Positions 20,773 to 55,026 of a DNA stretch of 64,000 bases are shown piece after piece (within the stretch, counting starts at the first letter, position 1; each line of letters begins with the position of its first letter). A program made the position numbers and the translations under genes. Source of the stretch: a bacterium. GTDB lineage: Bacteria > Oederibacteriota > CAKKQC01. Location: positions 40,296 through 104,295 of the forward strand of contig CAKKQC010000002.1 of the NCBI GenBank assembly GCA_919901855.1, read 5' to 3'. The notes below the pieces were generated by a model. It worked only from the letters and a program-made list of their open reading frames with translations. It did not search any database and had not been told where the DNA came from.

Positions 20773-20816
20773 TAGTTTCGGCGTCCGCCGAAACTACGCG
20801 GGACGTTCCGTCCCGC
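20772..20816 (+). terminator. Tandem stem-loops after rimI (palindromic-element copy plus 8-bp hairpin)
   Basis: GTAGTTTCGGCG-tc-CGCCGAAACTAC (20772-20797, perfect 12-bp arms) is immediately followed by GCGGGACG-ttc-CGTCCCGC (20798-20816). No U-run. Confidence 0.45.
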
Positions 20817-24542: not shown

Positions 24543-25351
24543 CGGCGTGATGGCGCCAGGCGCCCGCGCACCAAGCGCGTTGGCGCAGCGAGCCCGAGGG
24601 CGACCATGAGGGCCAGCATCGGTCCGGCCGCGAGGAGGGGGCTGGCATACAGGCCCCAGACGAGCCAGCCGGCAATGGCGGCCAGCCCGACGCGGGCCGC
24701 GGGGTCCGCCCGTCGACCGAAGGCCGGCGGCAGGAGGGTGACGAAGGCGGCCGCCACGAGGAGGACGAGCGCCGCCGCCACTACGAGGCCGCCGTCCGTG
24801 AGGTGATGCCGGTAGAGGTCCGGCGGGTCGAGGGTGACGCTCCCGCGGGCCGTCACGGCCCCCGGGATCTCCGCGGACGCCGACACTCCTCGTGCGGCGG
24901 GAAGCCACCGGCTCGTGAACCGGCCGAATTGGCCCGGGCCCCAGCCGAAGACCGGATGCTGGGTGAACGCGAGCCGGGCCGCGGCGGCTAGATCGCTCCG
25001 GGGGATCCGGATCGCGGGCGGGACGGCGAGGACGACGGCCAGCGCCCCGGCGACGAGCGCGGCGGCGGCGAGCCGGGCCCGGAGCCGGTCCGCGCCGTCT
25101 CGCGGCGGGAAGGCGGCGCGGAGACAGATGCAGAGTAGCGGCCCGCCGACGAGGGGAATCGCCGCGCGCAGAGCCGCAGGGAAGTCCCAGGGCGCGGCGA
25201 GGCCGGCGACCTGCCATGCGGCGGCGTACGCGAGCAGGGCCCAATCGAGGACGTCGAACGGCGCGTTGCGCTTCCACGCGAAGCAGCCGGTGATAATGAG
25301 CGCGGCGGCCAGGGCAGGCAACATCGGGTTCAGGATACCATGGGACATCAT
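24539..25351 (-). CDS. Hypothetical polytopic membrane protein
   Basis: Minus ORF with about 8 hydrophobic helices (LPALAAALIITGCFAW, LLAYAAAWQVAGLAAPW, VVAAALVLLVAAAFVTLL...). Start taken at MMSHG (25351). Start and real-gene status uncertain. Confidence 0.4.
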   Translation of the reverse strand: MMSHGILNPMLPALAAALIITGCFAWKRNAPFDVLDWALLAYAAAWQVAGLAAPWDFPAALRAAIPLVGGPLLCICLRAAFPPRDGADRLRARLAAAALVAGALAVVLAVPPAIRIPRSDLAAAARLAFTQHPVFGWGPGQFGRFTSRWLPAARGVSASAEIPGAVTARGSVTLDPPDLYRHHLTDGGLVVAAALVLLVAAAFVTLLPPAFGRRADPAARVGLAAIAGWLVWGLYASPLLAAGPMLALMVALGLAAPTRLVRGRLAPSRR

Positions 25352-38993: not shown

Positions 38994-39015
38994 GTGGGGC
39001 TTCGCCGGCCGTCCC

Positions 39016-39043
39016 CGGGGTTTCGGCGGACGCCGAAACCCCG
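39016..39043. repeat. Palindromic repeat element copy (CGGGGTTTCGGCG-ga-CGCCGAAACCCCG)
   Basis: Perfect 13-bp inverted arms with 2-nt spacer. Intergenic, between GH4 and the amidohydrolase. Member of a 4-copy family (20772, 54566, 54743). Confidence 0.85.
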
Positions 39044-42082: not shown

Positions 42083-42108
42083 TCCCGGCGTCCCGGTAGA
42101 GACCGACC

Positions 42109-43023
42109 ATGATGCCCCGGCTCGCGGTCTTCCCGAAGGGGTTCTTCACGGATCTCGTCGAGCACCGGATGACCCTGACCCGGTGGCTGGACATCGCCGC
42201 CGGGCTGGGCGTGGACGGGGTCGAGATGTACCCGAAGTTCCTATTCTCGCTCAATGGCGGGCCGCTGCGAGCCGTCCGCGGCGAAGCAGCGGCACGGGGG
42301 CTCGCGATTCCGATGATGTGCCACTCGCCGGACTTCACGATTCCCGACGCTGCGGGCCGCGCGGCCGAGGTGGCGCGGACGGAGGAGGTCATCGCCGCGA
42401 CCGCGGACCTCGGCGGCACGTTCTGCCGCGTGCTCTCGGGCCAGAACCGGCCCAGGCTCGATGCCGTCAAGGCGCTGGGCTGGGTCATGGCCTCGATCGA
42501 GGCCCTCCTCCCGGTGGCCGCCCGGCACGGGGTCACCCTCGTGATCGAGAACCACTACAAGGACGGGCTCTGGGAGTACCCGGAGTTCGCCCAGAGCCGG
42601 GACCGGTTCCTGGCCATCCTCAAGGCGGTGCCCGAGCTCAAGGTCCAGTACGATCCCTCGAACGCCGTGGTCGCGGGCGAGGACCCGTATGCCCTCCTGG
42701 ATGAGGTCCTGCCGCGCGTCGCGACCATGCACGCGTCCGACCGGTACCTGGAGGGCGGGACCGTCGCCGATCTTCGTGCCCAGGCCGCGGACCCCGTCCA
42801 CGGGTACGCTAGAATCCTCAAGCACGGCGTGATCGGCCGCGGGTTCAACGACTACGACCGGATCTTCCAGGCGCTGGCCGGGGCCGGATTCGCGGGCTGG
42901 GTCTCGATCGAGGACGGGGAAGCCCCGACGGAGGAGGAAGGCGTGGCGAATCTCAAGACGAGTGCGGTGTTCCTGCGCGCCAGGCTCGCGGCGCACTTCG
43001 GCGCGTCCGGGGGGGCGGCATGA
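42109..43023 (+). CDS. Sugar phosphate isomerase/epimerase (xylose-isomerase-like TIM barrel; UlaE-like)
   Basis: GVDGVEM...TLVIENHY...GWVSIE are typical AP_endonuc_2 TIM-barrel motifs. Confidence 0.8.
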   Translation: MMPRLAVFPKGFFTDLVEHRMTLTRWLDIAAGLGVDGVEMYPKFLFSLNGGPLRAVRGEAAARGLAIPMMCHSPDFTIPDAAGRAAEVARTEEVIAATADLGGTFCRVLSGQNRPRLDAVKALGWVMASIEALLPVAARHGVTLVIENHYKDGLWEYPEFAQSRDRFLAILKAVPELKVQYDPSNAVVAGEDPYALLDEVLPRVATMHASDRYLEGGTVADLRAQAADPVHGYARILKHGVIGRGFNDYDRIFQALAGAGFAGWVSIEDGEAPTEEEGVANLKTSAVFLRARLAAHFGASGGAA

Positions 43024-43814
43024 GCGCCAAGGGCCGGCTCGCGGGCAAGCGGGCGCTGGTCACGGGCTCCACGCAGGGGCTCGGCGCCGGGATTGCGCGA
43101 CGGTTCGTAGCCGAGGGCGCGCGGGTCGTCGTCACGGGCCGGAACCGGGATCGCGGGAAGGCGATGGCCAAGCGCATCGGCCGCGGGACGGTCTTCATCC
43201 CGGCCGACCTCGTGAATCCCGAAGAAGTGCGGCGGCTCGCCACGGAGGCGCTGAAGGCGCTCGGCGGGCTGGACATCCTCGTGAACAGCGCGGCCATGCC
43301 CGAGCGGTCGAATCTCGACACGTTCACGGCCGACCAGTTCGACCGGCTCTTCCACTGCGACGTCCTCGCGCCCCTGCTCCTGGCGCAGGCGGCCCGGAAG
43401 GCGCTGGCCGCGCGGACGGGGACGATCATCAACATCGGGAGCGTGAACGCCTACGTGGGCGACGGCAACCTCCTCGTCTACTCCGCCACCAAGGGCGCGC
43501 TCATGACCGCGACCCGGAACCTGGCGGCCCAGCTCCAGTACGACCGGATCCGGGTGCACGTCCTCAACTGCGGGTGGATGGACACCGAGGGCGAGCGCGC
43601 GATCATGTCCGGCGAGGGGCACCCTATCAACTTCCTCGACGAGGCCGGCAAGTTCCGGCCCATGGGCCGGCTCATCACGCCCGCCGACGTCGGGGCCGCC
43701 TGCGTCTGGCTGGCGTCCGACGAGGCGGCCGTGTTTTCGGGAACCGTGATCGACCTCGAACAGCACCCGGTCGGCGGCTGGGGCCGGCGGCGCAGGAAAG
43801 AGGAGAAGAAGTGA
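43020..43814 (+). CDS. SDR-family short-chain dehydrogenase/reductase
   Basis: ALVTGSTQGLGAGIA (TGxxxGxG) and YSATKGAL (YxxxK). ATGA overlap with the previous gene. Confidence 0.85.
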   Translation: MSAKGRLAGKRALVTGSTQGLGAGIARRFVAEGARVVVTGRNRDRGKAMAKRIGRGTVFIPADLVNPEEVRRLATEALKALGGLDILVNSAAMPERSNLDTFTADQFDRLFHCDVLAPLLLAQAARKALAARTGTIINIGSVNAYVGDGNLLVYSATKGALMTATRNLAAQLQYDRIRVHVLNCGWMDTEGERAIMSGEGHPINFLDEAGKFRPMGRLITPADVGAACVWLASDEAAVFSGTVIDLEQHPVGGWGRRRRKEEKK

Positions 43815-44503
43815 ACCTGCTCGACGGCCGCCCGAAGGTCCAGGTCTCGCTCGACCTCACGAATCTCGACGAGGCGCTGGCGACGGCCCGGATCGCGGTT
43901 CGGGCGGGCGTGGACTGGCTCGAGGCCGGGACGCCCCTGATCCTGGCCGAGGGGCTCCACGCGGTGAAGGCGCTCCGGAAGGAGTTCCCGGACCACCCCG
44001 TGGTCGCCGACCTCAAGACCATGGACGCCGGTTTCCTCGAGGCCGAGATGATGTTCAAGGCGGGCGCCGCGTTCGTGGTCGTCATGGCCGTCGCGCACGA
44101 GCGCACGGTCCGCGAGGCCGTGCGGGCGGGCAAGCAGTACTCGGGGCTCGTGATGGCCGATGTCATGCTGCACGCGGACAAGCCGGGCATCGCGAAGAAG
44201 CTGGAGTCGTGGGGCGTAGACGCGATCATCGTCCACACCGGGTACGACGAGCGGCACCACACCCCGGGGCTCTCGCCTCTCGACGACCTGGTCGCGGTGC
44301 GCGCCGCGGTCAAGATCCCGCTCCAGGCCGTGGGCGGGCTCTCGATCGAGCAGGCGGCCGGGATGCCCGGCAGGGGCGCGCCACTGGTCGTCATCGGCGC
44401 CCCGCTCGCGATCGCGGACGCGGAGCTCAAGCCCGGCGCCGACGAGGCCAAGCTCGAGGCCGTGATCCGCGAGTTCGTGACCCGGGTCAAGGCGGGTGGC
44501 TGA
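43811..44503 (+). CDS. 3-hexulose-6-phosphate synthase / 3-keto-L-gulonate-6-phosphate decarboxylase family (OMPDC-like)
   Basis: GTG overlaps the SDR stop. KVQVSLDLTNLDEAL...VADLKTMDAG...DAIIVHTGYDE are KGPDC/HPS signatures. Confidence 0.8.
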   Translation: MNLLDGRPKVQVSLDLTNLDEALATARIAVRAGVDWLEAGTPLILAEGLHAVKALRKEFPDHPVVADLKTMDAGFLEAEMMFKAGAAFVVVMAVAHERTVREAVRAGKQYSGLVMADVMLHADKPGIAKKLESWGVDAIIVHTGYDERHHTPGLSPLDDLVAVRAAVKIPLQAVGGLSIEQAAGMPGRGAPLVVIGAPLAIADAELKPGADEAKLEAVIREFVTRVKAGG

Positions 44504-44504
44504 A

Positions 44505-45551
44505 ATGGCCGCCACGATGCGGGCGGTGGTCCAGTTCGATCTCAAGCCGAAGTCCGTCGAGCTCCGCGACGTTCCGGTGCCGGAGCCGGGGGAGGGCGAG
44601 GCCCTCTTGCAGGTCAGCGCCGTCGCCATCTGCGGGAGCGACGTGCACCAGTATCACGCCACCCAGTCGTGGAAGGTGGCGGTGCCCGTGATCCTGGGCC
44701 ACGAGTTCTGCGGGAGGGTGGCCCGGATCGGCCGCAACGCCGCCGGATTCGCCGAGGGCGACCGGGTCGTGAGCGAGACCGCGGCCGTGATCGACGAGAC
44801 CTCGCCGCTCACACGGCAGGGGAAGTACAACCTCGATCCGGCGCGCAAAGGCTTCGGGTACGGCGTGGACGGCGCGATGGCGTCGTTCGTGAAGGTGCCC
44901 GTCCGGTGCCTGCACCGTATACCCGGGAACGTGCCCGACGAGATCGCGGCTATGGCCGAGCCGTGCTGTGTCGCCTACCAGGCTACGGTCGTGAACTCGC
45001 CCATCAAGCCCGGCGACGTCGTCGCCGTGCTCGGTCCCGGGCCGATCGGCCTGCTCTGTGCCGCCATAGCGCGCCTGCGTGGGGCCGGCGTCGTCCTGCT
45101 CGCGGGCGTGACCAAGGACCGGGCCCGGCTCGCCGCGGGCCTCACGCTCGGCGCGACGCACACGGTGGACGTCCAGACCGAGGACGGCAAGGAGCGTCTG
45201 GCGACACTGGGCGACGGGCTGGGTGCCGACGTCGTCATCGACGCCGCCGGCGTCTCGGCCGCGCTCCGGACCGCGCTCGACTGGGTCCGCCCCGGCGGCC
45301 ACATCACCAAGGTCGGCTGGGGCCGCGAGCCCCTCGCCTGCTCGCTCGATCCGCTGGTCCAGAAGGCGGTGACGCTCCAGGGCTCGTTCAGCCACACGTG
45401 GCCGGTCTGGGAATCCGTCCTCCGCCTGCTCTCGTCCGGCCAGCTCAACCCCAAGCCGCTCCTCGGTCGCGTCGCCCCTCTTGCCGATTGGCAGTCCTGC
45501 TTCGACGGCATGTCCGACGGCGCCCTCATCAAGGCGGTCCTGAAGCCGTAG
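44505..45551 (+). CDS. Zinc-dependent medium-chain alcohol/polyol dehydrogenase
   Basis: CGSDVH...GHEFCG (catalytic Zn) and GPGPIGL (NAD-binding). GTG 44496 is also in frame. Confidence 0.85.
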   Translation: MAATMRAVVQFDLKPKSVELRDVPVPEPGEGEALLQVSAVAICGSDVHQYHATQSWKVAVPVILGHEFCGRVARIGRNAAGFAEGDRVVSETAAVIDETSPLTRQGKYNLDPARKGFGYGVDGAMASFVKVPVRCLHRIPGNVPDEIAAMAEPCCVAYQATVVNSPIKPGDVVAVLGPGPIGLLCAAIARLRGAGVVLLAGVTKDRARLAAGLTLGATHTVDVQTEDGKERLATLGDGLGADVVIDAAGVSAALRTALDWVRPGGHITKVGWGREPLACSLDPLVQKAVTLQGSFSHTWPVWESVLRLLSSGQLNPKPLLGRVAPLADWQSCFDGMSDGALIKAVLKP

Positions 45552-45562
45552 CTCCGAAAGCA

Positions 45563-45585
45563 GGAGGGGCCCTTTCGGGCCCCCA
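45563..45585 (+). terminator. Stem-loop after the dehydrogenase gene
   Basis: GGGGCCC-tttc-GGGCCCC, 12 nt after the stop. No U-tract. Confidence 0.4.
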
Positions 45586-45657
45586 ATGGCGTTCGCCATC
45601 CGCCAGGAGATCGATAGCCAGGCTTAACGGTCATTTCAGCCTAACAGCGGGGAAATA

Positions 45658-45693
45658 CCTGAACGATATCTCCAGAAGCTGACGCGAAGTCCT
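45658..45693. repeat. Left ~35-bp imperfect direct repeat flanking the R-M cassette
   Basis: cctgaacgatatctccagaagctgacgcgaagtcct. Compare the right copy cccgaacgagctgt-cagaaactgacgcgaatccct at 48806-48840. Confidence 0.6.
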
Positions 45694-45794
45694 GGTAGGC
45701 ACGGGGTTAGCCTCCGGATTCCCGGGATCCCGACTCCAGCGGCCGAAGAGCGCCAGCACGAATCCGAAGATACGGAGGATGCCCCCACTTCCTG

Positions 45795-45800
45795 TACAAT
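45795..45800 (+). promoter_or_regulatory. Candidate -10 (TACAAT) for the R-M cassette operon
   Basis: cctgTACAATcatg, in an AT-richer stretch about 100 nt upstream of the small ORF and the MTase. Confidence 0.25.
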
Positions 45801-45896
45801 CATGTTGTCAATACTGGAGACGATGCGCCACGGTTGGCGTCGGGGCGATTGATCGTGGGGAAGTTGACCGGAGACAGGGGTCTCCAAGATAAGACT

Positions 45897-46052
45897 ATGC
45901 GGCTGGCGGGTAGCGATATTAGAGTCGAGACTCTTGATGACGTGTTGGTGAAGGCCGAGCGAATCTACGGCGAGGTTGAGAAGACGCTGAAGAAAGTGGC
46001 ACCCGAGTACTCGAGGCAGGCCCGCCGAGGGCGAAAGAAGGAGAAGAAATAG
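45897..46052 (+). CDS. Small Lys-rich ORF preceding the methyltransferase (possible regulatory/leader peptide)
   Basis: 51 aa from ATG 45897 (MRLAGSDIRVETLDDVLVKAERIYGEVEKTLKKVAPEYSRQARRGRKKEKK). Its 3' end contains the MTase RBS aaggagaag. Stop TAG overlaps the MTase GTG. Confidence 0.3.
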   Translation: MRLAGSDIRVETLDDVLVKAERIYGEVEKTLKKVAPEYSRQARRGRKKEKK

Positions 46053-47275
46053 TGTCCTTCTCCGTCTCTTCACCCGCGACCGTGATCGACCTCTTCTGTG
46101 GGGCGGGAGGGCTTTCGCTAGGACTGCGACATGCCGGTTGGAGAATTGTCCAGGCGATCGACAGCGATCGCTCTGCCGTTGAAACCTACCGGAACAACCT
46201 TGGTGATGACGTTGTCCAAGCGGAGATTAGCGCTAAAACCGTGCTGTGCGATTCCCTCCTGATTGCTGGTGGACCGCCGTGTCAGGGCTTTTCATCTGCG
46301 GGCCTGCGGAAGAACGGTGACGGCAGAAACAGCCTGGTCAAGGTATTCGCCACTCTGATCGCTCGATATCAACCGAGGGCGTTTCTGTTCGAGAACGTGG
46401 AGGGGTTCTTGACCGCCGAGGGAGGGGCGCGCATCGTTGATCTACTTGGAACGCTCTTGTCCGCTGGCTACAACATACATCTCCGGAAGATTAATGCGGC
46501 CAATTACGGAGTTCCCCAACATAGAAAGCGTGTGATTGCAATCGGTGGCCTCGGCTGGCAGCCGACATTTCCGGAACCGATCTGCCACGCTCGGGGCATG
46601 CCTGGGGCGTCGCGATCGTTCCGCCACCTCCCCCCGGGCCCGTCATTGGCCGAGGCGCTCAGGGGGTTACCAAAGCCAAGCAAAGAACCCCCAGGCGTAC
46701 CACAAGGCCATTTCGAAACTCCGCTGAGTAGCGTTGACGCCGACAGGATTTCACGCCTAGAGATTGGCCAGACAATGCGCGACTTGCCGGGCGCGCTACG
46801 ACATAAGAGCTACCAAAGGCGGGCGTACCGACGCGTCATGGACGGGACGCCGACGGACAAGCGCGGCGGTGCTCCGGCTGGACTTCGAAGGCTCCGTCCC
46901 GATGAACCGTGCAAAGCCATCACGGGAGCCGCCCGGAACGAATTCGTGCATCCTTTGAAAGACCGCTTCCTCACAATCCGCGAGTGTGCGCGGCTGCAAA
47001 CCTTCCCAGACGATTTTGAGTTCTTCGGCTCATCAACCGAGCAATCCACTCTGATCGGGAATGCCGTTCCTTCATTGTTGGCCGAGGTTGTTGGCGCTCA
47101 TCTACTGAAGGAATTGTTGGCGGAACCAGCAAGAGCCGACGGGGGAAAGCTCCTGAGTTTCATTCCAACAATGGCTGAAGGCATGAGTCCCATTCTGGCC
47201 AGGGTAACGCAGCAGGTTCATACCCTCTTTGGAGGCGCGTCCCCGAGTGACGTGCAGCTACCCCTGTGGGTCTGA
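46052..47275 (+). CDS. DNA (cytosine-5)-methyltransferase (Type II R-M modification subunit)
   Basis: Motif I DLFCGAGG, motif IV GGPPCQGFS, motif VI ENV, motif VIII QHRKR, C-terminal RECARLQTFPDDFEF...GNAVP. Confidence 0.9.
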   Translation: MSFSVSSPATVIDLFCGAGGLSLGLRHAGWRIVQAIDSDRSAVETYRNNLGDDVVQAEISAKTVLCDSLLIAGGPPCQGFSSAGLRKNGDGRNSLVKVFATLIARYQPRAFLFENVEGFLTAEGGARIVDLLGTLLSAGYNIHLRKINAANYGVPQHRKRVIAIGGLGWQPTFPEPICHARGMPGASRSFRHLPPGPSLAEALRGLPKPSKEPPGVPQGHFETPLSSVDADRISRLEIGQTMRDLPGALRHKSYQRRAYRRVMDGTPTDKRGGAPAGLRRLRPDEPCKAITGAARNEFVHPLKDRFLTIRECARLQTFPDDFEFFGSSTEQSTLIGNAVPSLLAEVVGAHLLKELLAEPARADGGKLLSFIPTMAEGMSPILARVTQQVHTLFGGASPSDVQLPLWV

Positions 47276-48324
47276 CGCTAACGGAACGGTCGGTGGTTGA
47301 GAAGGCCCGTTCTGGGGGTGGGGCTGACTTGGCCACCACGCTCGATGACGAGGTCTGTGCCTATCTGGTGTCCGTGATTGTCCATGACCTTGGTCTTGCC
47401 GCCAGGATTCCGGAGATGCGGGCCAAGCCAGGGCCCTTCTTCGCCTCGGATTCACCCGAGAAGCTACGACTAAAGGGAGTGGAGTTCTGGGCTGTTCTGG
47501 AACGGCTTGTTGCGGCCAAACGTGACGCGGTCACGTACTTCTCTTGCTTGGCAGCGCTCCATAAGAGCCGTCTGAAGTACGCCAGGATATTGCGGAGCCA
47601 GCCCATACCAACTATGGATCAAGTCGGCCCGAGGGGGCTTCTCCAATACGGCTCGATGAGCCCGCAGGCCTTGACAGGATTGCTGCTGTGGAGGAAGTGG
47701 TTGTACGACATCGACAACCGGGCTGCACAGGAAACCGGCTATCTTTTCGAACCGATCATCGCGCATTCAATAGGCGGTGCCCCGTTCAGTTCGAGTCAGA
47801 GTCCGATAAGGCGGCATGACGATCGCGGGAAGAGAAGGCAAGTGGACTGTGTCAGGGATAAGAGAGCCTATGAATTCAAGATGCGCGTAACGATCGCGGC
47901 ATCAGGACAAGGACGTTGGCGTGAGGAGATGGACTTTCCACTTGACTGCCGCAAGAGCGGCTTCAAACCCGTTCTGCTCGTTTTCGATGGAACGCGCAAT
48001 CCCAAGCTCACCGAGCTCACGAAAGCCTTCCTCAAGTGCGGGGGCGAAACACACGTGGGCGACCATGCATGGCAACACCTGGAGGATGAGGCGGGGGATG
48101 TGATGGCCAGGTTCCTCGACATCTATGTTCGAGGACCGATCCAAGCCCTCCTGAAGGAGGTGCCCGGAGATGTTCTTCCCGAACTTCGGTTGAAGATGAA
48201 CAAACACCGTCTTGTCGTTGCTGTTGGCGGTGAGAGTATGCAGGTCAAGAGGGCCTCGAGGAGATCAGTTGACACGGAGGACCCGATGCCCGTTGACGTT
48301 GGCGACGAATCCCCGGGAGTCTGA
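47266..48324 (+). CDS. Putative Type II restriction endonuclease (PD-(D/E)xK-like) cognate to the m5C MTase
   Basis: GTG 47266 overlaps the MTase stop by 10 nt. 352 aa with no recognisable family. Candidate PD...(D/E)xK: VDCVRD...EFK. Position and overlap are typical of R genes. Confidence 0.55.
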   Translation: MGLTLTERSVVEKARSGGGADLATTLDDEVCAYLVSVIVHDLGLAARIPEMRAKPGPFFASDSPEKLRLKGVEFWAVLERLVAAKRDAVTYFSCLAALHKSRLKYARILRSQPIPTMDQVGPRGLLQYGSMSPQALTGLLLWRKWLYDIDNRAAQETGYLFEPIIAHSIGGAPFSSSQSPIRRHDDRGKRRQVDCVRDKRAYEFKMRVTIAASGQGRWREEMDFPLDCRKSGFKPVLLVFDGTRNPKLTELTKAFLKCGGETHVGDHAWQHLEDEAGDVMARFLDIYVRGPIQALLKEVPGDVLPELRLKMNKHRLVVAVGGESMQVKRASRRSVDTEDPMPVDVGDESPGV

Positions 48325-48371
48325 GGAAGTCCTGTCCTGCGGAAGTCTGATTGATACCATTGGGGTGAACC

Positions 48372-48842
48372 ATGAAGAAGCCGAAAACTCTGGAGCCGAT
48401 CCATCCCGGGGAGATACTCCTGGAGGAGTTCATGAAGCCGATGGGGATCAGCATCAACCGGCTGGCCCGTGACCTTGCCGTCCCGCCGAACCGGGTGAGC
48501 GGTATCGTCAACGGGGCCCGGGCGATCACGGCGGACACCGCCCTGCGGCTCGGTAAGTACTTCGGAGTGTCGCCGGAGATGTGGCTCAGGCTTCAGGCGC
48601 AATATGAACTGCGAGTTGCGCGGCACACACACCCTCGGTTCAAAGAAGCCCATCGAGCTGCTTCGCGAGATGGGAGGGATCCTCAGGTCTTCGGGCATCA
48701 CGAAGCGGGCGGCGCTCAAGATGCTCGAAGCGGCCCGCGCCGACGTCTATCGGTAGGGTTGTCCTCGACGCGGTTGTTCTTGTCTCCGTTGCTTTCGGCG
48801 GCATTCCCGAACGAGCTGTCAGAAACTGACGCGAATCCCTAA
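48372..48842 (+). CDS. higA: HigA-like HTH (XRE-family) antitoxin/controller with C-terminal read-through extension
   Basis: IHPGEILLEEFMKPMGISINRLARDLAVPPNRVSGIVNGARAITADTALRLGKYFGVSPEMWLRLQAQYEL is the canonical HigA core (~90 aa). The ORF then runs 60 more aa through the cassette boundary into the porin remnant before the first stop. Confidence 0.65.
   Translation: MKKPKTLEPIHPGEILLEEFMKPMGISINRLARDLAVPPNRVSGIVNGARAITADTALRLGKYFGVSPEMWLRLQAQYELRVARHTHPRFKEAHRAASRDGRDPQVFGHHEAGGAQDARSGPRRRLSVGLSSTRLFLSPLLSAAFPNELSETDANP
48806..48840. repeat. Right ~35-bp imperfect direct repeat flanking the R-M cassette
   Basis: cccgaacgagctgtcagaaactgacgcgaatccct. It overlaps the stop-codon region of the porin-paralog remnant. 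Confidence 0.6.
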
Positions 48843-49020
48843 CCCGGCGTCGGCGACGGGGGCGGGGATATCCAGGGCCGGGATGGGGATGCCGTTGATC
48901 GTCCGGGGGCCGGACTTCAGCCCGAACCGGAACTCGCCGCCGGGGGCGCCGTAGCGGCCCGAGGATCATCCCGCCACTGAGCAGTTCGAACCGGGCGCGT
49001 GCCATCGCCATGCCGCCGGT
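48821..49020 (-). pseudogene. Decayed 3' fragment of an outer-membrane beta-barrel gene (paralog of the 53324 gene)
   Basis: Minus-strand translation ...YGAPGGEFRFGLKSGPRTINGIPIPALDIPAPVADAGLGIRVSF* is near-identical to the C-terminus of the 53324..54856 protein. About 118 bp are ~90% identical at DNA level to 53340-53460, then homology continues with deletions. No 5' part. Confidence 0.6.
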
Positions 49021-49082
49021 TGACTCGTGCAGGCGCCGCCGTTAGAATCCCCGATCATGAACGGGGGGCGCGAGGGGCTTTT

Positions 49083-51131
49083 GTGAGGGTGATTTCCGTG
49101 TGCTGCGTGGCCATCGTGGCCGTCACGGCGGGCGCCAAGGCGGCCCAGCCGGACGCCGCCGCCGGGAATCCGTGTGCGTCTTTCTCCCGCCGGTGCGCGG
49201 AAGCCGGGGAGCTGGTGCGACGGGGCAGGCGGGAGGAGGCCAGGCAGGCCTACCGCGAGGCGATGGCACAGGCGCGGGAGCACGCCTGTCCTCCGGGAGA
49301 GGGGGGATTCGACGGCATGGCGGTGGTGACCCTCTTCGCGGGCCCCGCCGATCCGCGTTCCGCCGCCGCCGCGTGCGACTTCGTGCTGCAAGCCCATCCC
49401 ACCGGCCAGATCCGGCTGGAGGCCCTCCTGACCAAGGCCGGGGCGCACCTGGCGCTCGGCGAGCGGGCGACCGCGGACGGGATATGCCGGGGTATCATCC
49501 GGGACCTCCCGGACGACGCGACCGCCGGACCGGTGTTGTGCCGCATCGGCACGGTGGTCGGTTTCAAGGAGGAGATCGCGAGCAAGTGCGAAGCGATCAT
49601 CGGGGAGTCCACCGACCACGTCGCCACGTATCGCGAACGCAACATGGTCGAGCTGATCCGGCGGTACGGCGACGGGGGGCGTGCGCCCATCAACCTCTAC
49701 ATTCCGACGGAATGGAGATCCATGACCCCGGCGGCCAGGCTGGCCGTCTACAACCGGATTCTGGCGCGTTATCCGGCCTGCCGGCTCGCGCCCTACATCC
49801 GGTTCCTGCGGGCGAGCCTGTACCACGCGAGCGCGAACGCCGTGAGCCCGGGTACGCAAGCCGGCGGAGCCGTCCGACGCGCGGCCCGTATGCGCCAGGC
49901 GGCGGTCAGGGACTACGAATGGCTGATGGGCGGGGGGGGGAGCGGGGCGAGGTTCCCGGCTTCCTGGCCGGGGGAGGATGGCCTGGTCGGTTACCGGATC
50001 GGCGGGTCGATCCAGGCGGTTGCCGTCTGCCGGATGGGCCAGCTTCACGCCGCCGTGGATCCCCTCAGGGCCCAGTCATACTTCGGGTGGGCCATGACGA
50101 AGGCCGTCGAGGGGGTCGACTGCCACGGGGATCCTTACGGCCTGCTGGCCAGGCTGGACTGTCTCGCGATGTGGCTTGGCGGCCCCGTGTCCCTGCTGCC
50201 TCCGCGGGCGGTCGAAACCATCGCGGTCGAAGTGCTCGAATGGAAGGGCTCCGGCGGCCGGTGGGAGGGCAAGACCCGGGCGATCGGGCTCAGGCGGCTG
50301 GCGGAGTTCCACTCCCGGACCGGCGAACGGCAGAGGGCGATGGACGAGTGGCGCGGCTTCTTCGGGCAGCCCGGGACGGGAACGCCGGACACGGTCAGGG
50401 AGTTCCTGGGCGACGCCGTGGGCGCGCGCGCGGCATGGGGGGAAAGCGCGAAGCTGACGGGGAAGACGTTCCCGGTGGAAACCCGGATGGCGGCTCACGC
50501 GGTGCGGTCGGACTACCTGATCGCCTCCGGGGCGGGCGTCAAGGCGGCCCTGCTGGAACTGAGGAGGATGGAGGCGATCGGCGGGGACGGCGGGCAGGCG
50601 CCAAAGGGGGGAGACGGGGCGTTCGTGGCGCGGGCCCGCCGACGGGCGCTCGTACTGGCTGCCTACCTGAGGCTGATCGGGGACCGGCCGGACCGGGGGC
50701 GGATCCAGCAGGCGTGTGCCGGGGGCAGGAACACCGCTCTCCTGGGCGTCCTGTTCGAACAGGCCAGGTGGTGCAGGTCCAACCTCGACTGGTGGAAGCG
50801 GAGCCTGGCCCGGGGCGGTCCTTTGCGCAAGCCGGGCGGTCCGGGACTGGTGACCCTGGTCGCGTGGCACTATCTGTCCGGCGGCGACTGCGACGACTTC
50901 CTGCTATTCCTGCTCGAGGCCTACCCGCAGCAGGTCGCGCCCGAGGTGGTGCGCCTTGTCCGTGCGGCGCGCGGCGACGCCGGGGTGCTGGCGGGCCGGC
51001 AGCTCGGACGGATGCTCCGGCACCGGCATCCCGATCTGCTGGACGAGCTGTTGGCGGGCGAACCGGGCGGCGGCAAGAGGCCCGGTCGCAAGGAGCCCGG
51101 GACCCGAATCCGGGCAGCGAAGAAGGGATGA
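49083..51131 (+). CDS. Hypothetical secreted protein (682 aa)
   Basis: GTG 49083 gives VRVISVCCVAIVAVTAGAKAAQPDAAAGNP (signal peptide). High-GC native composition with W/Y/C present. No domain recognised. The overlapping +2-frame 683-aa ORF (49100) is Arg-rich junk. Confidence 0.45.
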   Translation: MRVISVCCVAIVAVTAGAKAAQPDAAAGNPCASFSRRCAEAGELVRRGRREEARQAYREAMAQAREHACPPGEGGFDGMAVVTLFAGPADPRSAAAACDFVLQAHPTGQIRLEALLTKAGAHLALGERATADGICRGIIRDLPDDATAGPVLCRIGTVVGFKEEIASKCEAIIGESTDHVATYRERNMVELIRRYGDGGRAPINLYIPTEWRSMTPAARLAVYNRILARYPACRLAPYIRFLRASLYHASANAVSPGTQAGGAVRRAARMRQAAVRDYEWLMGGGGSGARFPASWPGEDGLVGYRIGGSIQAVAVCRMGQLHAAVDPLRAQSYFGWAMTKAVEGVDCHGDPYGLLARLDCLAMWLGGPVSLLPPRAVETIAVEVLEWKGSGGRWEGKTRAIGLRRLAEFHSRTGERQRAMDEWRGFFGQPGTGTPDTVREFLGDAVGARAAWGESAKLTGKTFPVETRMAAHAVRSDYLIASGAGVKAALLELRRMEAIGGDGGQAPKGGDGAFVARARRRALVLAAYLRLIGDRPDRGRIQQACAGGRNTALLGVLFEQARWCRSNLDWWKRSLARGGPLRKPGGPGLVTLVAWHYLSGGDCDDFLLFLLEAYPQQVAPEVVRLVRAARGDAGVLAGRQLGRMLRHRHPDLLDELLAGEPGGGKRPGRKEPGTRIRAAKKG

Positions 51132-51149
51132 AGGGGAAACGCCTGAAGT

Positions 51150-51660
51150 AATCGACGTCGGGGCTCGACAACGGGAAGGCCCAGGAACCCCTGGACACCA
51201 CGCCTTGCGCCCTTTCCACGAAGCGGACCCGGGAGAGGAGGCGCCGGTCGAAGTATCTGCCTCCCGCCTCCGGATAGAAGCGCAGGATGGCACCGTCGTC
51301 GGTCTTGAGGAGAAAGCCTTCGGGAATCGCCTCAATCGCCAGCGTCTGCGGGTATGGCGGGGGGTTGTTCTCGAAACGGTAGTTCCCGACGGCTGTCGTG
51401 ATCTCGTCCGTGTTGAGCGGCCCGTCAATGCAAACGATGCCGTCTTCGGCGAGGCTCGAGAGCAGAAGGCGGGTGAAGGCCTTGGTCACCGACCCGATCT
51501 CGAAGATCGGTCTTTCCCCAAGGGGAACCGGCGCCGATCCATACGTCCGGAAGAGTGTCGTGTCCCGCTGCTGAACCGCCACCACCAGCGCCGGGCACCA
51601 ACCGTCCCGAACGTACGGTTGCGCGATCGAGTCGAGTTCCGCGGCAGTCAGTTGGGCCAT
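51150..51660 (-). pseudogene. Serine-hydrolase (beta-lactamase family) remnant, internally deleted and running antisense into the neighbouring gene
   Basis: ATG 51660. ERPIFEIGSVTKAFT (S-x-x-K active-site motif), then immediately C-terminal-domain-like sequence (YRFENN...FYPEAGGRYFDRR). After about 170 aa the frame becomes Arg/Pro junk, antisense to the 49083 gene. Confidence 0.35.
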
Positions 51661-51736
51661 CCTGCCTCCTCCGCGGAACGCTTCCGATTGGGACGCATCA
51701 TATTCCTACGGTCCGGTGTCGAGGCCGCGGCGGGAA

Positions 51737-52645
51737 TCATCGCCAGGGACCTCCTGCGGGCCAGGTGACATCGAAGGCGTTCCGGCTCGAGGCAGCCTCA
51801 AGCACGGGAGGGAGGAAGAGCCGGAGGCTCTTGCCGACGGAAGCGAAGTCGGTCGGCACATCCGTGAGATCGCCCTTGGTGAGGTATGCCTTCCACTGCT
51901 GGACCTTCCCGGGCTCCTCATAGAACGCCGGGGTCAGCGAGTCCGGCACGGCGGAGGGGATCTGCGTCTGCCGGCTCTTGAACGTTGCGGCGACTGCCAG
52001 GACCAGACGTTGGCCCTCGAAGGAGAAGCTTCTTGACAGCGTCAGGAGATCGTAGAAGTCCTTCATGCGGCTGTTCGCCAGCCCCAGCGACACCATGGCA
52101 TGAAACTTCTCCGCCACGACGGACTCCCGTGAGTAAGCCAGGATTCGCGGCTCCGGACCGTCCAGCAGGACCGGGAACACGATCTCGGCGGCGGGAGGCA
52201 CGAGTGAGTCCCCGAATCCCACGTCCACTTGAAGCGTAACGCGGGCGGTTCCGAGCCGCGCGACGAGGAGCAACCGCACCCCGCCTTCATCGGTGGCGCC
52301 ACGGATGCTGTTCACCCGGATCGTATCCGGCTGAAACTCGAGGCCGTCGTCCGGAACCTGCACCGCGCAGATCTCGCGCACGACTCCGGCCACGTCAGCA
52401 GGATTGCCGGATCCCTGTCCGAGAAGGTCCAAGTCCCGGGTCGCCCGATAGGCCTGCCCGCTCCAGAACGCGAACAGCATCGCCCCCTTGAGGGTGAAGG
52501 CGTTCCTGAACCGGGATTCCCCGAGACGATACAGGAAGCGCTCGGCGGCGTACCGCTGGAGGAGCAGATTGAAGTCCATGTCCCGGTCGCGGGACAGTTG
52601 CAGGAGCCGGTCGTGAACGGAAGCGGGCAGATTGCGGGGGGTCAT
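51737..52645 (-). CDS. abiEii: AbiEii/AbiGii nucleotidyltransferase toxin (Type IV TA, DUF1814)
   Basis: 302 aa. RDLDLLG...VDVGFGD are AbiEii NTase-fold motifs. ATGA overlap with the abiEi stop. Confidence 0.85.
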   Translation of the reverse strand: MTPRNLPASVHDRLLQLSRDRDMDFNLLLQRYAAERFLYRLGESRFRNAFTLKGAMLFAFWSGQAYRATRDLDLLGQGSGNPADVAGVVREICAVQVPDDGLEFQPDTIRVNSIRGATDEGGVRLLLVARLGTARVTLQVDVGFGDSLVPPAAEIVFPVLLDGPEPRILAYSRESVVAEKFHAMVSLGLANSRMKDFYDLLTLSRSFSFEGQRLVLAVAATFKSRQTQIPSAVPDSLTPAFYEEPGKVQQWKAYLTKGDLTDVPTDFASVGKSLRLFLPPVLEAASSRNAFDVTWPAGGPWR

Positions 52646-53250
52646 GCGACCAGCGATTGCAGGTACGGCATGACGACGGTTCTCGCCCGGCAGACGCCGG
52701 CGATCCGCGTGATCTCATCCACCGTCGCTTGCCGTGAGCGGATCGAGTCGCGCAGCGCCTCCAGCGCGACGTCGAGACCTATCTTCCGCCGATAGCGGAA
52801 GCAGTCCACGACCGTCCTGGCTGGCGAGGTGATTAGGATGGTGACGCCGAGCACCTCCTGCGTAACGACGGCGTGAGTGAGCATTCGGCCGGAGAACCGG
52901 ACGATCCGGACGGGCAGACCGGACAGCCGCGGCTTGCGAGCCTTGCGGTCCAGCGCGATCCAAACTGCCTTCGGTGCCTGAGTCCCGATGCCGTGCATGT
53001 GGAGGGCGGTGAGGAGGCATACGACGGCGTGGGGGACGCGCTTGCTGACCATGACTATTGTCACATGCTCGTTCTGGGCTGCTGATGTGAGGCGGTACAG
53101 TCCTCGAGCGACCCGGCTCGCTTCGCCCCGGCGGAGCATGGATTGGATGCGATGGCGGGTACTTCCCGGTTTCTCCAGGTCGGAGGGACGGAATATCCCC
53201 GGGAGGGTCGCGCCCTTGGACGACAGATGAGCACGTCGGTCAGTTCCCAT
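52642..53250 (-). CDS. abiEi: AbiEi antitoxin / transcriptional regulator (Type IV TA)
   Basis: LPGIFRPSDL...SRVARGLYRL (N-terminal wHTH) and conserved C-terminal domain. AT-rich promoter region 53251-53320. Confidence 0.8.
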   Translation of the reverse strand: MGTDRRAHLSSKGATLPGIFRPSDLEKPGSTRHRIQSMLRRGEASRVARGLYRLTSAAQNEHVTIVMVSKRVPHAVVCLLTALHMHGIGTQAPKAVWIALDRKARKPRLSGLPVRIVRFSGRMLTHAVVTQEVLGVTILITSPARTVVDCFRYRRKIGLDVALEALRDSIRSRQATVDEITRIAGVCRARTVVMPYLQSLVA

Positions 53251-53323
53251 GCTTGTACTATGCCGCATATGGTCGGCACCTGCAAGTATGTGCCTACACT
53301 ATGATGTATGCCTTCAGGGAGTG

Positions 53324-54856
53324 CTAGAAACTCACCCGGAGGCCCAGGCCGGCGTCGGCGACGGGGGCGGGGATGTCGAGGGCCGGGATCGGGATGCCAT
53401 TGATCGTCCGGGGGCCGGACTTCAGCCCGAACCGGAACTCGCCGCCGGGGGCGCCGTACCGGCCCGCCACGTACGCCTCGATGCGCAGATGCGTGAGCAG
53501 GACCGCGCCCCAGTCGAGCCGGGCGATGGCCGTGTGGTCCGAGAGGTTGGCGATGTTGGAGAGCGACAAGGACTGGTTCCCGTTCGTGCCGGGAATCGGG
53601 GAGAACGCGTACACGGCGGCGTAATCGCGGGCGAGGTAGAAGGGGGAGAAGCCGCCCTGGAAGATGAGCCAGGGGTATATGACCTTCTTCGTGTACCCGG
53701 CGGATTGGTAGAAGTACTCGGCGCCGATCGTCATCGCTTCCTTGTCCGTGATGTTGAACGACCAGTTGAGCCCGCCCGAGACCGCGGGCGTGAGCTTGTC
53801 GGGGATGTAGGATTCGAGCAACATGCCGCCGCCAGGGATCGGGTTCGCGATCTCGCGCCAGCGCGGATGATCGGTTCCCTTCATGATCACGCCTTCGGCA
53901 TAGACATCGATGGGACCCACGCCGGCGGAGAGGTCGGCGCCCGCCCGCGGGCGGTATCCGCGCTGGGCGATGGCGTCGATCCCGAACTCGCCGGTGCCGA
54001 AGACGGCCTCGGCGCGGGCGGCTCCGCCGATGCGCCCTATGGTGCCGGCGTGGTCGAGGCTCTCGAAGAGCTCCATGGCGTACAGGTTCCAGCCGCGCTT
54101 CTCCCACGGGATATGGACCTTGAGCATGGTTTGGCCGACCCGGGCGTCGAACTGGGCCAGCACGTCGCGGCGGGCGGAGTGGAGCAGGTCGTTGGGGTTC
54201 CAGAACCGGGCCGAGCCCCAGGTCACGTGCTGGCGGCCCGCCGTGACGAATACCGATCTTCCAAGGTCGAAGTTCACCCAGGCCTGGTCGAGCGCGACCG
54301 TGGGGCCGCCGCCGGGCGAGGCGCCGAGGAAGGAGGTCGTGGAGGTGACCGTAGGGTCAAATGACATGCGCGCGCGGAGCATGCCGCGGACGCGGTCGTT
54401 GGGCCGGGCGTCGAACCAGCCGTCGGCCAGGATCGGAACCGAGTTCGTCCAGGCGTCGGGCGGCTGGTGGGTGCCGGCGGTGACTGATTGACGGAGGTAG
54501 AACTGGCCACCGATGGAGAGCGGATTCTCGGGGGCTAACTCCTGGACACCCGAAGCGGGCGTCCGCGGAGTTTCGGCGGACGCCGAAACTCCGAGCGCGG
54601 TGGCGCTTTCGGCGGGGGAGCCGAACATGTCGGCTTCGGCGGCGCGGTTGTCGCCAGGTTCAGCCGCATGGACCGAACCAGAGAAGAGGATGAGCAGGGC
54701 AAAGAGGGCGCGGGTCCTGGTACGTCCGAGGACGGACGACCTGGAGTTTCCGCGGACGCGGAAACTCCTCGTGGGGACCTCGTCGGCGTGGGCCGTACGG
54801 ATTCGGGCTTCGGCGGACCGCTCGGCGGTCTGGCCAAAGCTCGCCTCGCTGCGCAC
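53324..54856 (-). CDS. Outer-membrane beta-barrel (porin-like) protein; start codon unresolved
   Basis: Signal peptide RTRTRALFALLILFSGSVHA-AEP. Amphipathic beta-strand pattern. C-terminal ...GLRVSF* (terminal Phe typical of OM beta-barrels). No ATG/GTG/TTG within 40 codons upstream of the signal peptide. Nearest in-frame GTG at 54856. Two palindromic elements lie in the 5' region. The 338 aa further upstream in the ORF are spurious. Confidence 0.5.
   Translation of the reverse strand: MRSEASFGQTAERSAEARIRTAHADEVPTRSFRVRGNSRSSVLGRTRTRALFALLILFSGSVHAAEPGDNRAAEADMFGSPAESATALGVSASAETPRTPASGVQELAPENPLSIGGQFYLRQSVTAGTHQPPDAWTNSVPILADGWFDARPNDRVRGMLRARMSFDPTVTSTTSFLGASPGGGPTVALDQAWVNFDLGRSVFVTAGRQHVTWGSARFWNPNDLLHSARRDVLAQFDARVGQTMLKVHIPWEKRGWNLYAMELFESLDHAGTIGRIGGAARAEAVFGTGEFGIDAIAQRGYRPRAGADLSAGVGPIDVYAEGVIMKGTDHPRWREIANPIPGGGMLLESYIPDKLTPAVSGGLNWSFNITDKEAMTIGAEYFYQSAGYTKKVIYPWLIFQGGFSPFYLARDYAAVYAFSPIPGTNGNQSLSLSNIANLSDHTAIARLDWGAVLLTHLRIEAYVAGRYGAPGGEFRFGLKSGPRTINGIPIPALDIPAPVADAGLGLRVSF
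54566..54593. repeat. Palindromic repeat element copy (CGGAGTTTCGGCG-ga-CGCCGAAACTCCG)
   Basis: Perfect 13-bp arms. Lies inside the predicted mature N-terminus of the porin-like ORF (encodes GVSASAETP). Confidence 0.85.
54743..54768. repeat. Palindromic repeat element copy (GGAGTTTCCGCG-ga-CGCGGAAACTCC)
   Basis: Perfect 12-bp arms, immediately 5' of the porin signal-peptide codons, where a start codon would be expected. Confidence 0.85.
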
Positions 54857-55026
54857 CGACCTCGCCCAGCGGGGCGTCCTCCATCGCTCGTGCGCCCCGA
54901 AGAACGCCGCCTCCGGTGTAGCCGCGTCGGCTCCGCCGCCGCTATACACCTCCGGCGGCCGGTCCGCACGGCGATGTCGGATCGGTCGGTGAGCTCCACC
55001 GAAGCCCGAATCCGTCCGGCCTGAGA

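What the first reader, a model, noticed from the sequence alone, without database searches (positions are those of the whole stretch)
48821..49020. Pseudogene fragment: duplicated 3' end of the outer-membrane beta-barrel gene, next to the R-M cassette
The minus-strand translation of 48821-48960 (...GAPGGEFRFGLKSGPRTINGIPIPALDIPAPVADAGLGIRVSF*) matches the last about 47 residues of the porin-like protein encoded at 53324-54856, with about 90% DNA identity over ~118 bp. Beyond that, homology persists only with multiple deletions.

This indicates that a porin paralog once sat here and was truncated or eroded. This plausibly happened during acquisition of the adjacent cassette, or the fragment may be its recombination substrate.
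Basis: seen in the sequence. Interest (0 to 1): 0.55.

Follow-up and report, generated by a model that had tools for sequence, protein, structure and literature searches.

The report
Displaced old tail of a membrane-protein gene
The 141-base fragment is the former last 47 codons of the neighbouring outer-membrane protein gene, pushed 4.5 kb away when a block of accessory genes arrived with its own replacement tail; this is an ordinary scar at a gene-insertion hotspot, not the wreck of a second gene copy.

Summary
Window 48819-48961 (-) repeats the last 47 codons plus stop of the outer-membrane protein (OMP) gene at 53324-53466 (-): 128/141 nt identical, blastn E 6e-43, 46/47 residues. Three independent assemblies carry it. 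No homology continues beyond 48961.

It is not a decayed paralog.
- Relatives have one OMP gene. It is followed directly by a DEAD helicase (L096, L097), an ADH cluster (L007) or HigA-HigB (L005). Against L007, window 45552-53323 (7.8 kb) is inserted.
- The HTH gene abutting the fragment is the ortholog of the L005 HigA, which lies just after the intact OMP stop there. The fragment therefore marks where this same gene once ended.
- The two copies differ by 12 synonymous and 1 conservative change (dS 0.39, dN 0.01). Nine fragment states recur in functional orthologs, so they are diverged alleles, not a fresh duplicate.
- A third, about 21-46-nt relic of the OMP terminus (45648-45693) lies between the R-M genes and ADH.

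Best reading: serial C-terminal displacement. Incoming blocks, first HigA plus R-M and then AbiEi/AbiEii, a truncated beta-lactamase and an orphan gene, each arrived with a replacement tail and shifted the old tail downstream. The insert has no recombinase. One-sided homologous plus illegitimate recombination is favoured; an integrase acting in trans is not excluded. Known kind, low interest.

The parts
48819..48961 (-). Copy B: orphaned former 3' end of the OMP gene, 47 codons plus a TGA stop. It is not translatable: an in-frame stop lies at 48966-48968 and there is no start codon.
   Evidence: 141 nt, 91% identity, E 6e-43; independent assemblies
53324..53466 (-). Copy A: the current 3' end (last 47 codons plus TAG) of the intact OMP gene
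   Evidence: It is closest to L011 (131/141), which also has AbiEi downstream.
53324..54856 (-). Intact OMP gene, a putative outer-membrane beta-barrel with C-terminal ...RVSF. It is the last gene of an ABC ATPase / 2x FtsX permease / LolA-like operon. The public gene call is 510 aa; the signal peptide suggests a start near 54733.
   Evidence: The operon is conserved in L005 and L007.
45648..45693 (-). Copy C: short relic of an older OMP terminus. 45672-45693 reads ..GLRVSF followed by TGG in place of the stop. 45648-45671 resembles the 25 nt after copy B's stop (17/25).
   Evidence: The 15-nt terminus pattern matches only A, B and C in 64 kb (expected 0.00 by chance), all on the - strand.
48962..53323 (.). 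Block 1, between copies A and B: promoter-like site, orphan gene, truncated beta-lactamase, AbiEii and AbiEi. No recombinase.
   Evidence: Absent at this site in L005, L007, L096 and L097.
52642..53268 (-). AbiEi antitoxin; starts 55 nt after the OMP stop
   Evidence: Pfam AbiEi_4 and AbiEi_1; PADLOC AbiEi, 7e-66. Same junction in L004 and L011.
51737..52645 (-). AbiEii nucleotidyltransferase toxin
   Evidence: 9e-42; 5e-108
51150..51660 (-). N-terminal fragment (about 170 aa, Pfam model positions 1-79 of 329) of a serine beta-lactamase-family gene. It is cut off where the orphan gene ends.
49083..51131 (+). 682-aa orphan gene with a signal-peptide-like N-terminus and native-like codon use (GC3 0.88). 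A TTGACT-17-TAGAAT promoter-like site lies at 49020-49048.
   Evidence: (only itself among 5.8 billion proteins)
48372..48842 (+). HigA-like HTH antitoxin gene, convergent with copy B and overlapping its last 24 nt. The conserved part is residues 1-86 (nt 48355-48624 match L005). The C-terminal extension has no coding signature (GC3 0.57). No HigB partner.
45834..48324 (+). Low-GC (57-59%) R-M unit sitting where HigB lies in L005: 72-aa ORF (45834-46052), type II m5C methyltransferase (46052-47275) and a putative ApaLI-like endonuclease (47266-48324).
44496..45551 (+). Zn-ADH, first gene of the conserved 4-gene cluster. In L007 it lies 9 nt from the OMP stop. It marks the far edge of the 7772-nt insert 45552-53323.

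Best explanation
The fragment (copy B) is the former 3' end of the same OMP gene. It was orphaned by a 'C-terminal displacement' event at a hotspot for accessory and defence genes just after that gene.

Shown:
- The basal state in relatives is OMP followed directly by core genes.
- In this genome 7.8 kb lies between the OMP stop and ADH.
- That 7.8 kb is punctuated by two relics of the OMP terminus: B, 141 nt, and C, about 21-46 nt.
- B keeps its old neighbour, an orthologous HigA.
- A and B are diverged functional alleles.

Inferred history:
1. OMP lay next to ADH. Copy C is that terminus.
2. A HigA(-HigB) unit, later or simultaneously with an R-M pair in HigB's place, entered about 21 nt before the stop. 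This gave OMP a new tail, copy B.
3. DNA from a related lineage then recombined in. In that lineage OMP is followed by AbiEi-AbiEii, as in L011 and L004. One crossover was homologous, inside or upstream of OMP. The other end joined illegitimately 141 nt before the resident stop, at 48961/48962. This is homology-facilitated illegitimate recombination.

The incoming allele (copy A) now completes the gene. The resident tail B and its downstream genes were shifted 4.5 kb away. B itself has no function.
For: 1. Single-copy ancestry and insertion. L007 aligns to the window up to the OMP stop (53324) and resumes at the ADH stop (45551), so 7772 nt replace a 9-nt spacer. L096 and L097 show OMP followed directly by a DEAD helicase. 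L005 shows OMP followed by HigA-HigB. None has a second OMP piece.

2. B is in its original context. The window HTH is 93% aa and 87.8% nt identical to the L005 HigA. The next best of 409 metagenomic relatives reach at most 82% and 79.5%. In both genomes the gene is convergent with, and immediately after, an OMP terminus.

3. Diverged alleles, not decay. There are 12 synonymous and 1 conservative (I/L) differences, dS 0.39 and dN 0.010. The probability of at least 12 of 13 being synonymous under neutrality is 2.7e-6. At 9 of 13 sites B's state is shared with functional orthologs. A is closer to L011 (131/141) than to B (126/141).

4. The A-AbiE linkage pre-exists. L011 (OMP 93% aa) and L004 have the same OMP-AbiEi junction. 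L011's divergence is uniform, about 9%, across both genes.

5. The joint at 48961/48962 is abrupt and non-homologous.

6. No integrase, transposase, tRNA or Rfam element lies in or beside the insert.

7. The third relic C shares CGC GTC AGY TTC TG with B, whereas A has CGG GTG ... TAG.

8. Precedent: orphaned 3' ends left by sequential displacement, with HFIR proposed as the mechanism (PMC5361080).
Against: - Neither the donor nor the pre-event recipient arrangement has been seen. Microhomology at the joint and the polarity of the event (which side was resident) therefore cannot be checked.
- Two successive events each leaving a relic of the same gene end would be expected from a site-specific system. 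Under HFIR that is partly a coincidence, softened by selection to keep OMP intact.
- Copy C is short. Beyond 21 nt it is only 68-72% identical to B, and the search pattern was designed after C had been seen.
- L005 has no C-like relic beyond HigB.
- Four B-specific changes cluster in its last 8 codons. They are mostly GC to AT and may be post-displacement mutations, so part of the divergence is not allelic.
Confidence: 0.55

Rival explanations
1. Site-specific integration with tandem accretion. The OMP tail is an attB. Each block was an integrative element, now integrase-less and mobilised in trans like a CIME or MGI. Its attP carried a surrogate OMP tail, so copies A, B and C are attL/attR-type sites.
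For: - Three co-oriented copies of the same gene end delimit three different cargo blocks.
- Similarity between A and B ends exactly at the stop codon and includes a 59-nt identical stretch, 48895-48953.
- The site is polymorphic among relatives, with empty states.
- AbiE and HigA occupy the same position in other lineages.
Against: - No recombinase lies in the 7.8 kb, and the flanks are core genes syntenic with L007.
- The two junctions lie at different distances from the stop, 21 and 141 nt.
- L005 has HigBA at the site without a distal relic.
- Block 1 is a patchwork (truncated beta-lactamase, orphan gene with native codon use), not a recognisable element.
- No match to plasmids or phages apart from AbiE genes themselves.
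Confidence: 0.25
2. Insertion with de novo 'long target duplication', as described for R-M units. The recipient's own 141 nt (and earlier about 46 nt) were duplicated on insertion, and the copies have diverged since.
For: - R-M units flanked by direct repeats of more than 30 bp, without mobility genes, are documented (PMC2853133).
- The B-C pair flanks an R-M pair, spans about 46 nt and crosses the stop codon.
Against: - For A/B the insert contains no R-M genes.
- The differences are 12:1 synonymous, and B's states are shared with other functional orthologs. A duplicated, non-coding copy would not evolve this way.
- A groups with L011, not with B.
- For B/C the identity is only 72%.
Confidence: 0.1
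3. One reading: remnant of an OMP paralog that once sat here and was truncated and eroded.
For: A gene fragment with high similarity to a nearby gene.
Against: - No paralog or fragment in any relative.
- No homology upstream of 48961.
- dN/dS is about 0.03 with no indels.
- The HigA synteny places B at the end of the orthologous, single OMP gene.
Confidence: 0.03
4. Metagenome assembly chimera between two co-occurring strains, one with OMP-AbiE and one with OMP-HigA.
For: - Strain variants co-occur.
- L012 has a 100-N gap inside copy A and three A-type bases in copy B.
- L015 ends at the repeat.
Against: - A switch within shared sequence would give a normal single gene, not the junction 48961/48962 between OMP-like and unrelated DNA.
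- That junction is spanned identically by L012, L013 and L014, from three replicate samples.
Confidence: 0.02

Closest known systems
C-terminal (sequential) displacement arrays at rhs / CDI / T6SS effector loci. Kirchberger et al. 2017 (PMC5361080), which cites Jackson et al. 2009 for rhs.
   Same: Incoming DNA shares the conserved 5' part of a gene and brings a new 3' end plus downstream genes. The resident 3' end and its downstream genes are pushed back, giving strings of orphaned 3' ends. An orphan antitoxin is retained here, as orphan immunity genes are retained there. No integrase is present, and HFIR is the proposed mechanism.
   Different: Here the displaced tails encode virtually the same peptide (46/47 residues), so nothing diversifies in the OMP itself. 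The variable cargo is unrelated defence and accessory genes downstream of the stop. The gene is an OMP of an ABC/LolA-like operon in a Myxococcota-like MAG.
Prophage and island integration into the 3' end of a protein gene with a surrogate end, for example e14 or phage 21 in E. coli icd, and ICESt/CIME in fda of Streptococcus thermophilus. Recalled from memory; not checked here.
   Same: A direct repeat of the gene's last about 100-170 nt flanks the insert. The copy completing the gene differs from the orphan copy mainly at synonymous sites. Tandem accretion can give several relics.
   Different: Those elements encode, or are known to borrow, an integrase and have a fixed crossover site. Here no recombinase is present and the two junctions lie at different positions.
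R-M gene insertion with long target duplication (Furuta, Abe and Kobayashi 2010, PMC2853133)
   Same: An R-M pair of foreign GC content, less than 20 kb, without mobility genes, is bracketed by direct repeats longer than 30 bp (copies B and C).
   Different: The B/C repeat is only about 72% identical over 46 nt. The bracket also contains a HigA gene that is orthologous to L005's. The main A/B repeat brackets no R-M genes, and its copies are diverged alleles.
Homology-facilitated illegitimate recombination (described in naturally competent bacteria and in E. coli conjugation; PMC3240628 abstract; references in PMC5361080)
   Same: One homologous anchor plus one illegitimate joint adds foreign DNA next to a conserved gene. 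Part of the recipient sequence beyond the joint survives.
   Different: This is only inferred here. The joint's microhomology and the transfer route are unknown.

Membership tests
   L001, L002, L004, L005, L007, L009 and L011 each have one OMP gene and no extra fragment.
   12 synonymous to 1 non-synonymous difference, dS 0.39, dN 0.010, no indels. No homology beyond 48961.
C-terminal displacement / HFIR scar | An orphaned 3' end of the resident gene lies downstream of a block that follows an intact copy of the same gene | tested here: met
   Copies A and B, same strand, 4505 nt apart. B keeps its ancestral neighbour HigA.
C-terminal displacement / HFIR scar | The two ends are diverged alleles from related lineages, and the incoming block is colinear with the homologous anchor in other strains | tested here: met
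   B's states are shared with functional orthologs at 9 of 13 sites. A is nearest to L011. The OMP-AbiEi junction is shared with L011 and L004.
C-terminal displacement / HFIR scar | Illegitimate joint with short microhomology between the donor end and the recipient | not testable with these tools
   The joint at 48961/48962 is abrupt, but no donor-type sequence extending past 48962 was found. The 682-aa gene has no relatives.
Integrase-mediated island at a gene 3' end (att duplication) | Direct repeats that include the gene end flank the insert, and an empty site exists in relatives | tested here: met
Integrase-mediated island at a gene 3' end (att duplication) | A tyrosine or serine recombinase encoded in or next to the island | tested here: not met
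   Pfam and PADLOC scans of all ORFs in 45552-53323 find none. The flanks are core genes.
Integrase-mediated island at a gene 3' end (att duplication) | The same element with both att sites at the same target in other genomes | tested here: inconclusive
   The L004 and L011 contigs end inside AbiE. L005 has HigBA but no distal relic.
R-M insertion with long target duplication (criteria of PMC2853133) | Both R and M genes in the insert, insert under 20 kb, no mobility genes | tested here: met
   This holds for the B-C interval only. The MTase is strong. The REase hit is weak in my scan (E 0.009) but is listed as RE_ApaLI in the collection's precomputed hits. The A-B interval has no R-M genes.
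R-M insertion with long target duplication (criteria of PMC2853133) | A duplicated target longer than 30 bp, with both copies aligning to one target in an insert-free genome | tested here: inconclusive
   B and C align over 46 nt at 72% identity, score 20 against a shuffle maximum of 19 in 300 shuffles. Only the 15-21-nt OMP terminus is clearly shared. L007 supplies the OMP-ADH target, but its spacer differs.

The most novel reading that the evidence does not exclude
The last codons of this OMP gene could be a dedicated, reusable docking site. Integrase-less defence cassettes (HigBA, R-M, AbiE) would each carry a surrogate OMP tail and be stacked there serially by an unrecognised site-preferring recombination system. 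The three co-oriented terminus relics would be its footprints.
Probability: 0.12. Interest if true: 0.55.

Novelty: new member of a known kind. Interest (0 to 1): 0.27.

Why it matters
The fragment is a small, clean example of how defence and toxin-antitoxin genes pile up after a conserved gene without any visible mobility gene. Each arrival regenerates the host gene's end and leaves the old end behind as a datable relic. For annotation, it means the fragment should not be called a paralog pseudogene. It also explains why short-read assemblies break at this locus. It does not open a new mechanism or resolve an outstanding question.

Tried and rejected
- Homology upstream of 48961: blastn with word size 7 and tblastn with word size 2 against the whole window found nothing above background.
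- A fourth relic at the far end of the ADH cluster, in the window or in L007: none.
- A distal relic beyond HigB in L005: none.
- OMP-tail duplicates in seven related loci: none.
- tRNA, tmRNA or Rfam elements as integration targets: none.
- A vehicle among plasmids and phages: only weak hits from AbiE genes to AbiE genes.
- Context of the 682-aa gene and of the beta-lactamase fragment, to read the donor arrangement: the first has no relatives, and the second has one 150-aa relative on a 769-nt contig.
- Exact look-ups of the ADH and REase proteins: not on record.
- Polarity of the event from divergence to L011 on either side of the repeat: 8.8% against 10% mismatches, so no power.
- HigB remnant in the window: none.

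Full report
**Observation**

Window 48819-48961 on the minus strand repeats the last 47 codons and the stop codon of the gene ending at 53324.
- The repeat finder gives 141 nt at 91% identity, spacing 4505, direct orientation.
- blastn gives E 6e-43 and tblastn gives E 6e-24. These are the only significant OMP matches in the 64-kb window.
- In codon register both copies end in a stop, TGA against TAG. They differ at 13 positions in 46 sense codons.
- Similarity ends abruptly at 48961/48962.
- In its own frame the fragment has a stop at 48966-48968 and no start codon, so it is not translatable.
- Independent assemblies of three replicate Hainich H43 groundwater samples contain the fragment. L012, L013 and L014 span both junctions at 99.9-100% identity. 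L015 stops inside the repeat. The fragment is therefore not an assembly artefact.

**Surroundings**

The genome is about 70% GC. On the minus strand the OMP gene (53324 to about 54733/54856) is the last gene of an operon with an ABC ATPase, two FtsX permeases and a LolA-like protein. Homologs of the OMP occur in Myxococcota genomes and MAGs, and a few are named 'porin' by their sources. I did not test the fold.

Going down from the OMP stop, the order is:
- AbiEi (52642-53268) and AbiEii (51737-52645), a complete type IV toxin-antitoxin/abortive-infection pair;
- the first about 170 codons of a beta-lactamase-family gene (51150-51660);
- a 682-aa gene on the other strand (49083-51131). It has no relative among 5.8 billion proteins, yet shows native-like codon use (GC3 0.88). 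It is preceded by the only sigma-70-like site in the region (49020-49048);
- the fragment;
- an HTH gene (48372-48842) convergent with the fragment;
- a low-GC (57-59%) unit of a putative ApaLI-like endonuclease, an m5C methyltransferase and a 72-aa ORF (45834-48324);
- about 280 nt of non-coding DNA;
- a Zn-ADH gene (44496-45551).

No integrase, transposase, tRNA or Rfam element lies in this stretch.

**Relatives**

| Locus | OMP identity | What follows the OMP stop |
|---|---|---|
| L007 | 77% aa | After 9 nt, a convergent ADH / OMP-decarboxylase-like / SDR / AP-endonuclease cluster, the same four genes as window 42105-45551 |
| L096, L097 | 84%, 76% | Directly a DEAD-box helicase |
| L005/L006 | 79% | A convergent HigA-HigB pair, then the helicase |
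| L011, L004 | 93%, 99.6% | AbiEi, with the same junction sequence as the window |

blastn shows that L007 aligns up to window 53324 and resumes at 45551. Window 45552-53323 (7772 nt) is therefore an insert relative to L007. The flank of this gene is a hotspot with different cargo in different lineages. None of seven related loci carries a second OMP gene or an OMP-tail fragment.

**The fragment is in its original context**

The window HTH gene belongs to a very widespread HigA family. In relatives it is preceded by a 92-aa HigB. The closest relative by a wide margin is the L005 HigA: 93% aa over residues 1-86 and 87.8% nt. The next best of 409 relatives reach at most 82% and 79.5%.

In L005 that gene lies convergent with, and 15 nt after, the stop of the intact OMP gene. 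In the window it is convergent with, and overlapping, the fragment. Fragment plus HigA is therefore a conserved block meaning 'end of OMP, then HigA'. The fragment marks where this same gene used to end.

Homology to L005 stops about 20 nt upstream of the HigA start. There the window has the R-M genes instead of HigB, with no HigB remnant.

**The two copies are diverged alleles**
- Of 13 differences, 12 are synonymous and one is Ile/Leu.
- NG86 gives dS 0.39 and dN 0.010. The chance of at least 12 of 13 being synonymous under neutrality is 2.7e-6.
- At nine of the 13 sites the fragment's base is shared with one or more functional orthologs.
- The gene copy A is closer to L011 (131/141) than to the fragment (126/141).
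- A fresh duplicate that then decayed would not look like this.
- Four fragment-specific changes (48834-48840) are mostly GC to AT and may have arisen after displacement.
- L011 diverges uniformly, by about 9%, from the window across both AbiEi and OMP. The OMP-AbiE linkage therefore predates the event.

**A third relic**

Between the R-M unit and ADH, 45672-45693 (-) reads ...GGA CTT CGC GTC AGC TTC TGG, that is GLRVSF followed by a mutated stop.

A 15-nt pattern for the OMP terminus (CGSGTSAGYTTCTRR) matches only three places in the window, namely A, B and C. All are on the minus strand, and 0.00 matches are expected by chance. I wrote this pattern after seeing C.

The next 25 nt of C match the 25 nt after B's stop at 17 positions. 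The 46-nt local alignment scores 20, against a maximum of 19 in 300 shuffles. B and C share CGC GTC AGY TTC TG, whereas A and its close relatives have CGG GTG AGY TTC TAG.

Read in the direction of the gene, the locus is therefore: OMP[A], AbiE/bla'/ORFan, [B], HigA/R-M, [C], ADH cluster. I found no fourth relic.

**Mechanism**

The shown facts fit serial displacement of the gene's 3' end. Each incoming block arrives joined to a replacement tail, and the resident tail with its downstream genes is shifted back. [quoted passage not shown]

I favour that mechanism for the A/B event for four reasons:
- the OMP-AbiE arrangement exists as such in a sister lineage;
- A and B are alleles of comparable divergence;
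- the distal joint is abrupt;
- there is no recombinase.

The main rival is site-specific integration by an integrase acting in trans, with tandem accretion. That would explain more naturally why two events both left relics of the same gene end. It is weakened by several points:
- no recombinase is present;
- the two junction positions differ (-21 and -141);
- block 1 is a patchwork;
- L005 lacks a distal relic.

De novo 'long target duplication', documented for R-M units (PMC2853133), could apply to the B/C pair. It is contradicted for A/B by the allele pattern. The paralog and assembly-chimera readings are essentially excluded.

**Limits**

I could not find the parental arrangements, so the polarity of the event and the microhomology at the joint are untested. 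Copy C rests on a short sequence. The OMP's fold and function were not examined.

**Verdict**

The fragment is a truncated remnant linked to gene acquisition. It is the displaced former tail of the same gene, not an eroded paralog. The responsible insertion is the AbiE/ORFan block, not the R-M cassette. This is a new instance of a known kind of scar, of modest interest.

Noticed in passing
window 48372-48842 (+) and 45834-48324: The HTH gene is an orphan HigA antitoxin. Its orthologs and relatives are preceded by a 92-aa HigB, but here a low-GC type II R-M pair sits in HigB's place and no HigB remnant exists. The ORF is extended to 156 aa against about 100 aa in L005. The extension has no coding signature (GC3 0.57). 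Its TAA stop (48840-48842) is formed by fragment-specific base changes.
   Followed up: partly
window 51150-51660 (-): Only the N-terminal about 170 residues of a beta-lactamase-family protein are present (SVTK motif, Pfam model positions 1-79 of 329). The fragment is cut off at the 3' end of the 682-aa gene. One 150-aa relative exists in the whole protein collection.
   Followed up: partly
window 49083-51131 (+), promoter-like site 49020-49048: A 682-aa gene with a signal-peptide-like start has no homolog among 5.8 billion proteins, apart from its own cluster (named by NCBI as from a 'Candidatus Coatesbacteria' MAG). It nevertheless has host-like GC3 (0.88) and a near-consensus TTGACT-17-TAGAAT site.
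   Followed up: partly
window 42083-42108, compared with L007 12977-14308 and L005 12152-13426: The DEAD-box helicase gene lies next to this locus in L005, L007, L096 and L097. It is missing in the window between the AP-endonuclease-like gene and the 190-aa gene.
   Followed up: partly
L012 3293, 3296, 3308 (= window 48870, 48873, 48885) and L012 7878-7977: One replicate assembly carries the gene-copy bases at three positions of the fragment and has a 100-N scaffold gap inside copy A. This reflects either gene conversion between the repeats in the population or read mixing at the repeat.
   Followed up: partly
window 53561-53636 (against L004) and 54574-54619 (against L012): Differences between co-occurring strains are clustered: 12 mismatches in 76 nt and 16 in 46 nt inside the OMP gene, while the inserted block is nearly clonal. 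These look like short recombination tracts or strain mixing.
   Followed up: no
window 54566-54593, 54743-54768, 20774-20801, 39010-39039, 19131-19160, 24862-24897: A family of about 26-nt near-perfect palindromes (GGAGTTTCSGCGGACGCSGAAACTCC) is scattered through the window. One copy lies inside the OMP coding region, where it encodes GVSASAETP.
   Followed up: no
window 54668-55026, including inverted repeat 54791-54817 / 54995-55021: The window has about 320 nt more between the LolA-like gene and the OMP gene than L007 has. A 27-nt inverted repeat (93% complementary) lies in this extra stretch.
   Followed up: no
window 45566-45590: A GC-rich hairpin (GGGGCCC-TTTC-GGGCCCC) lies immediately after the ADH stop, between ADH and relic C. 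The L012 and L013 contigs begin just beyond it, at 45578 and 45619.
   Followed up: no
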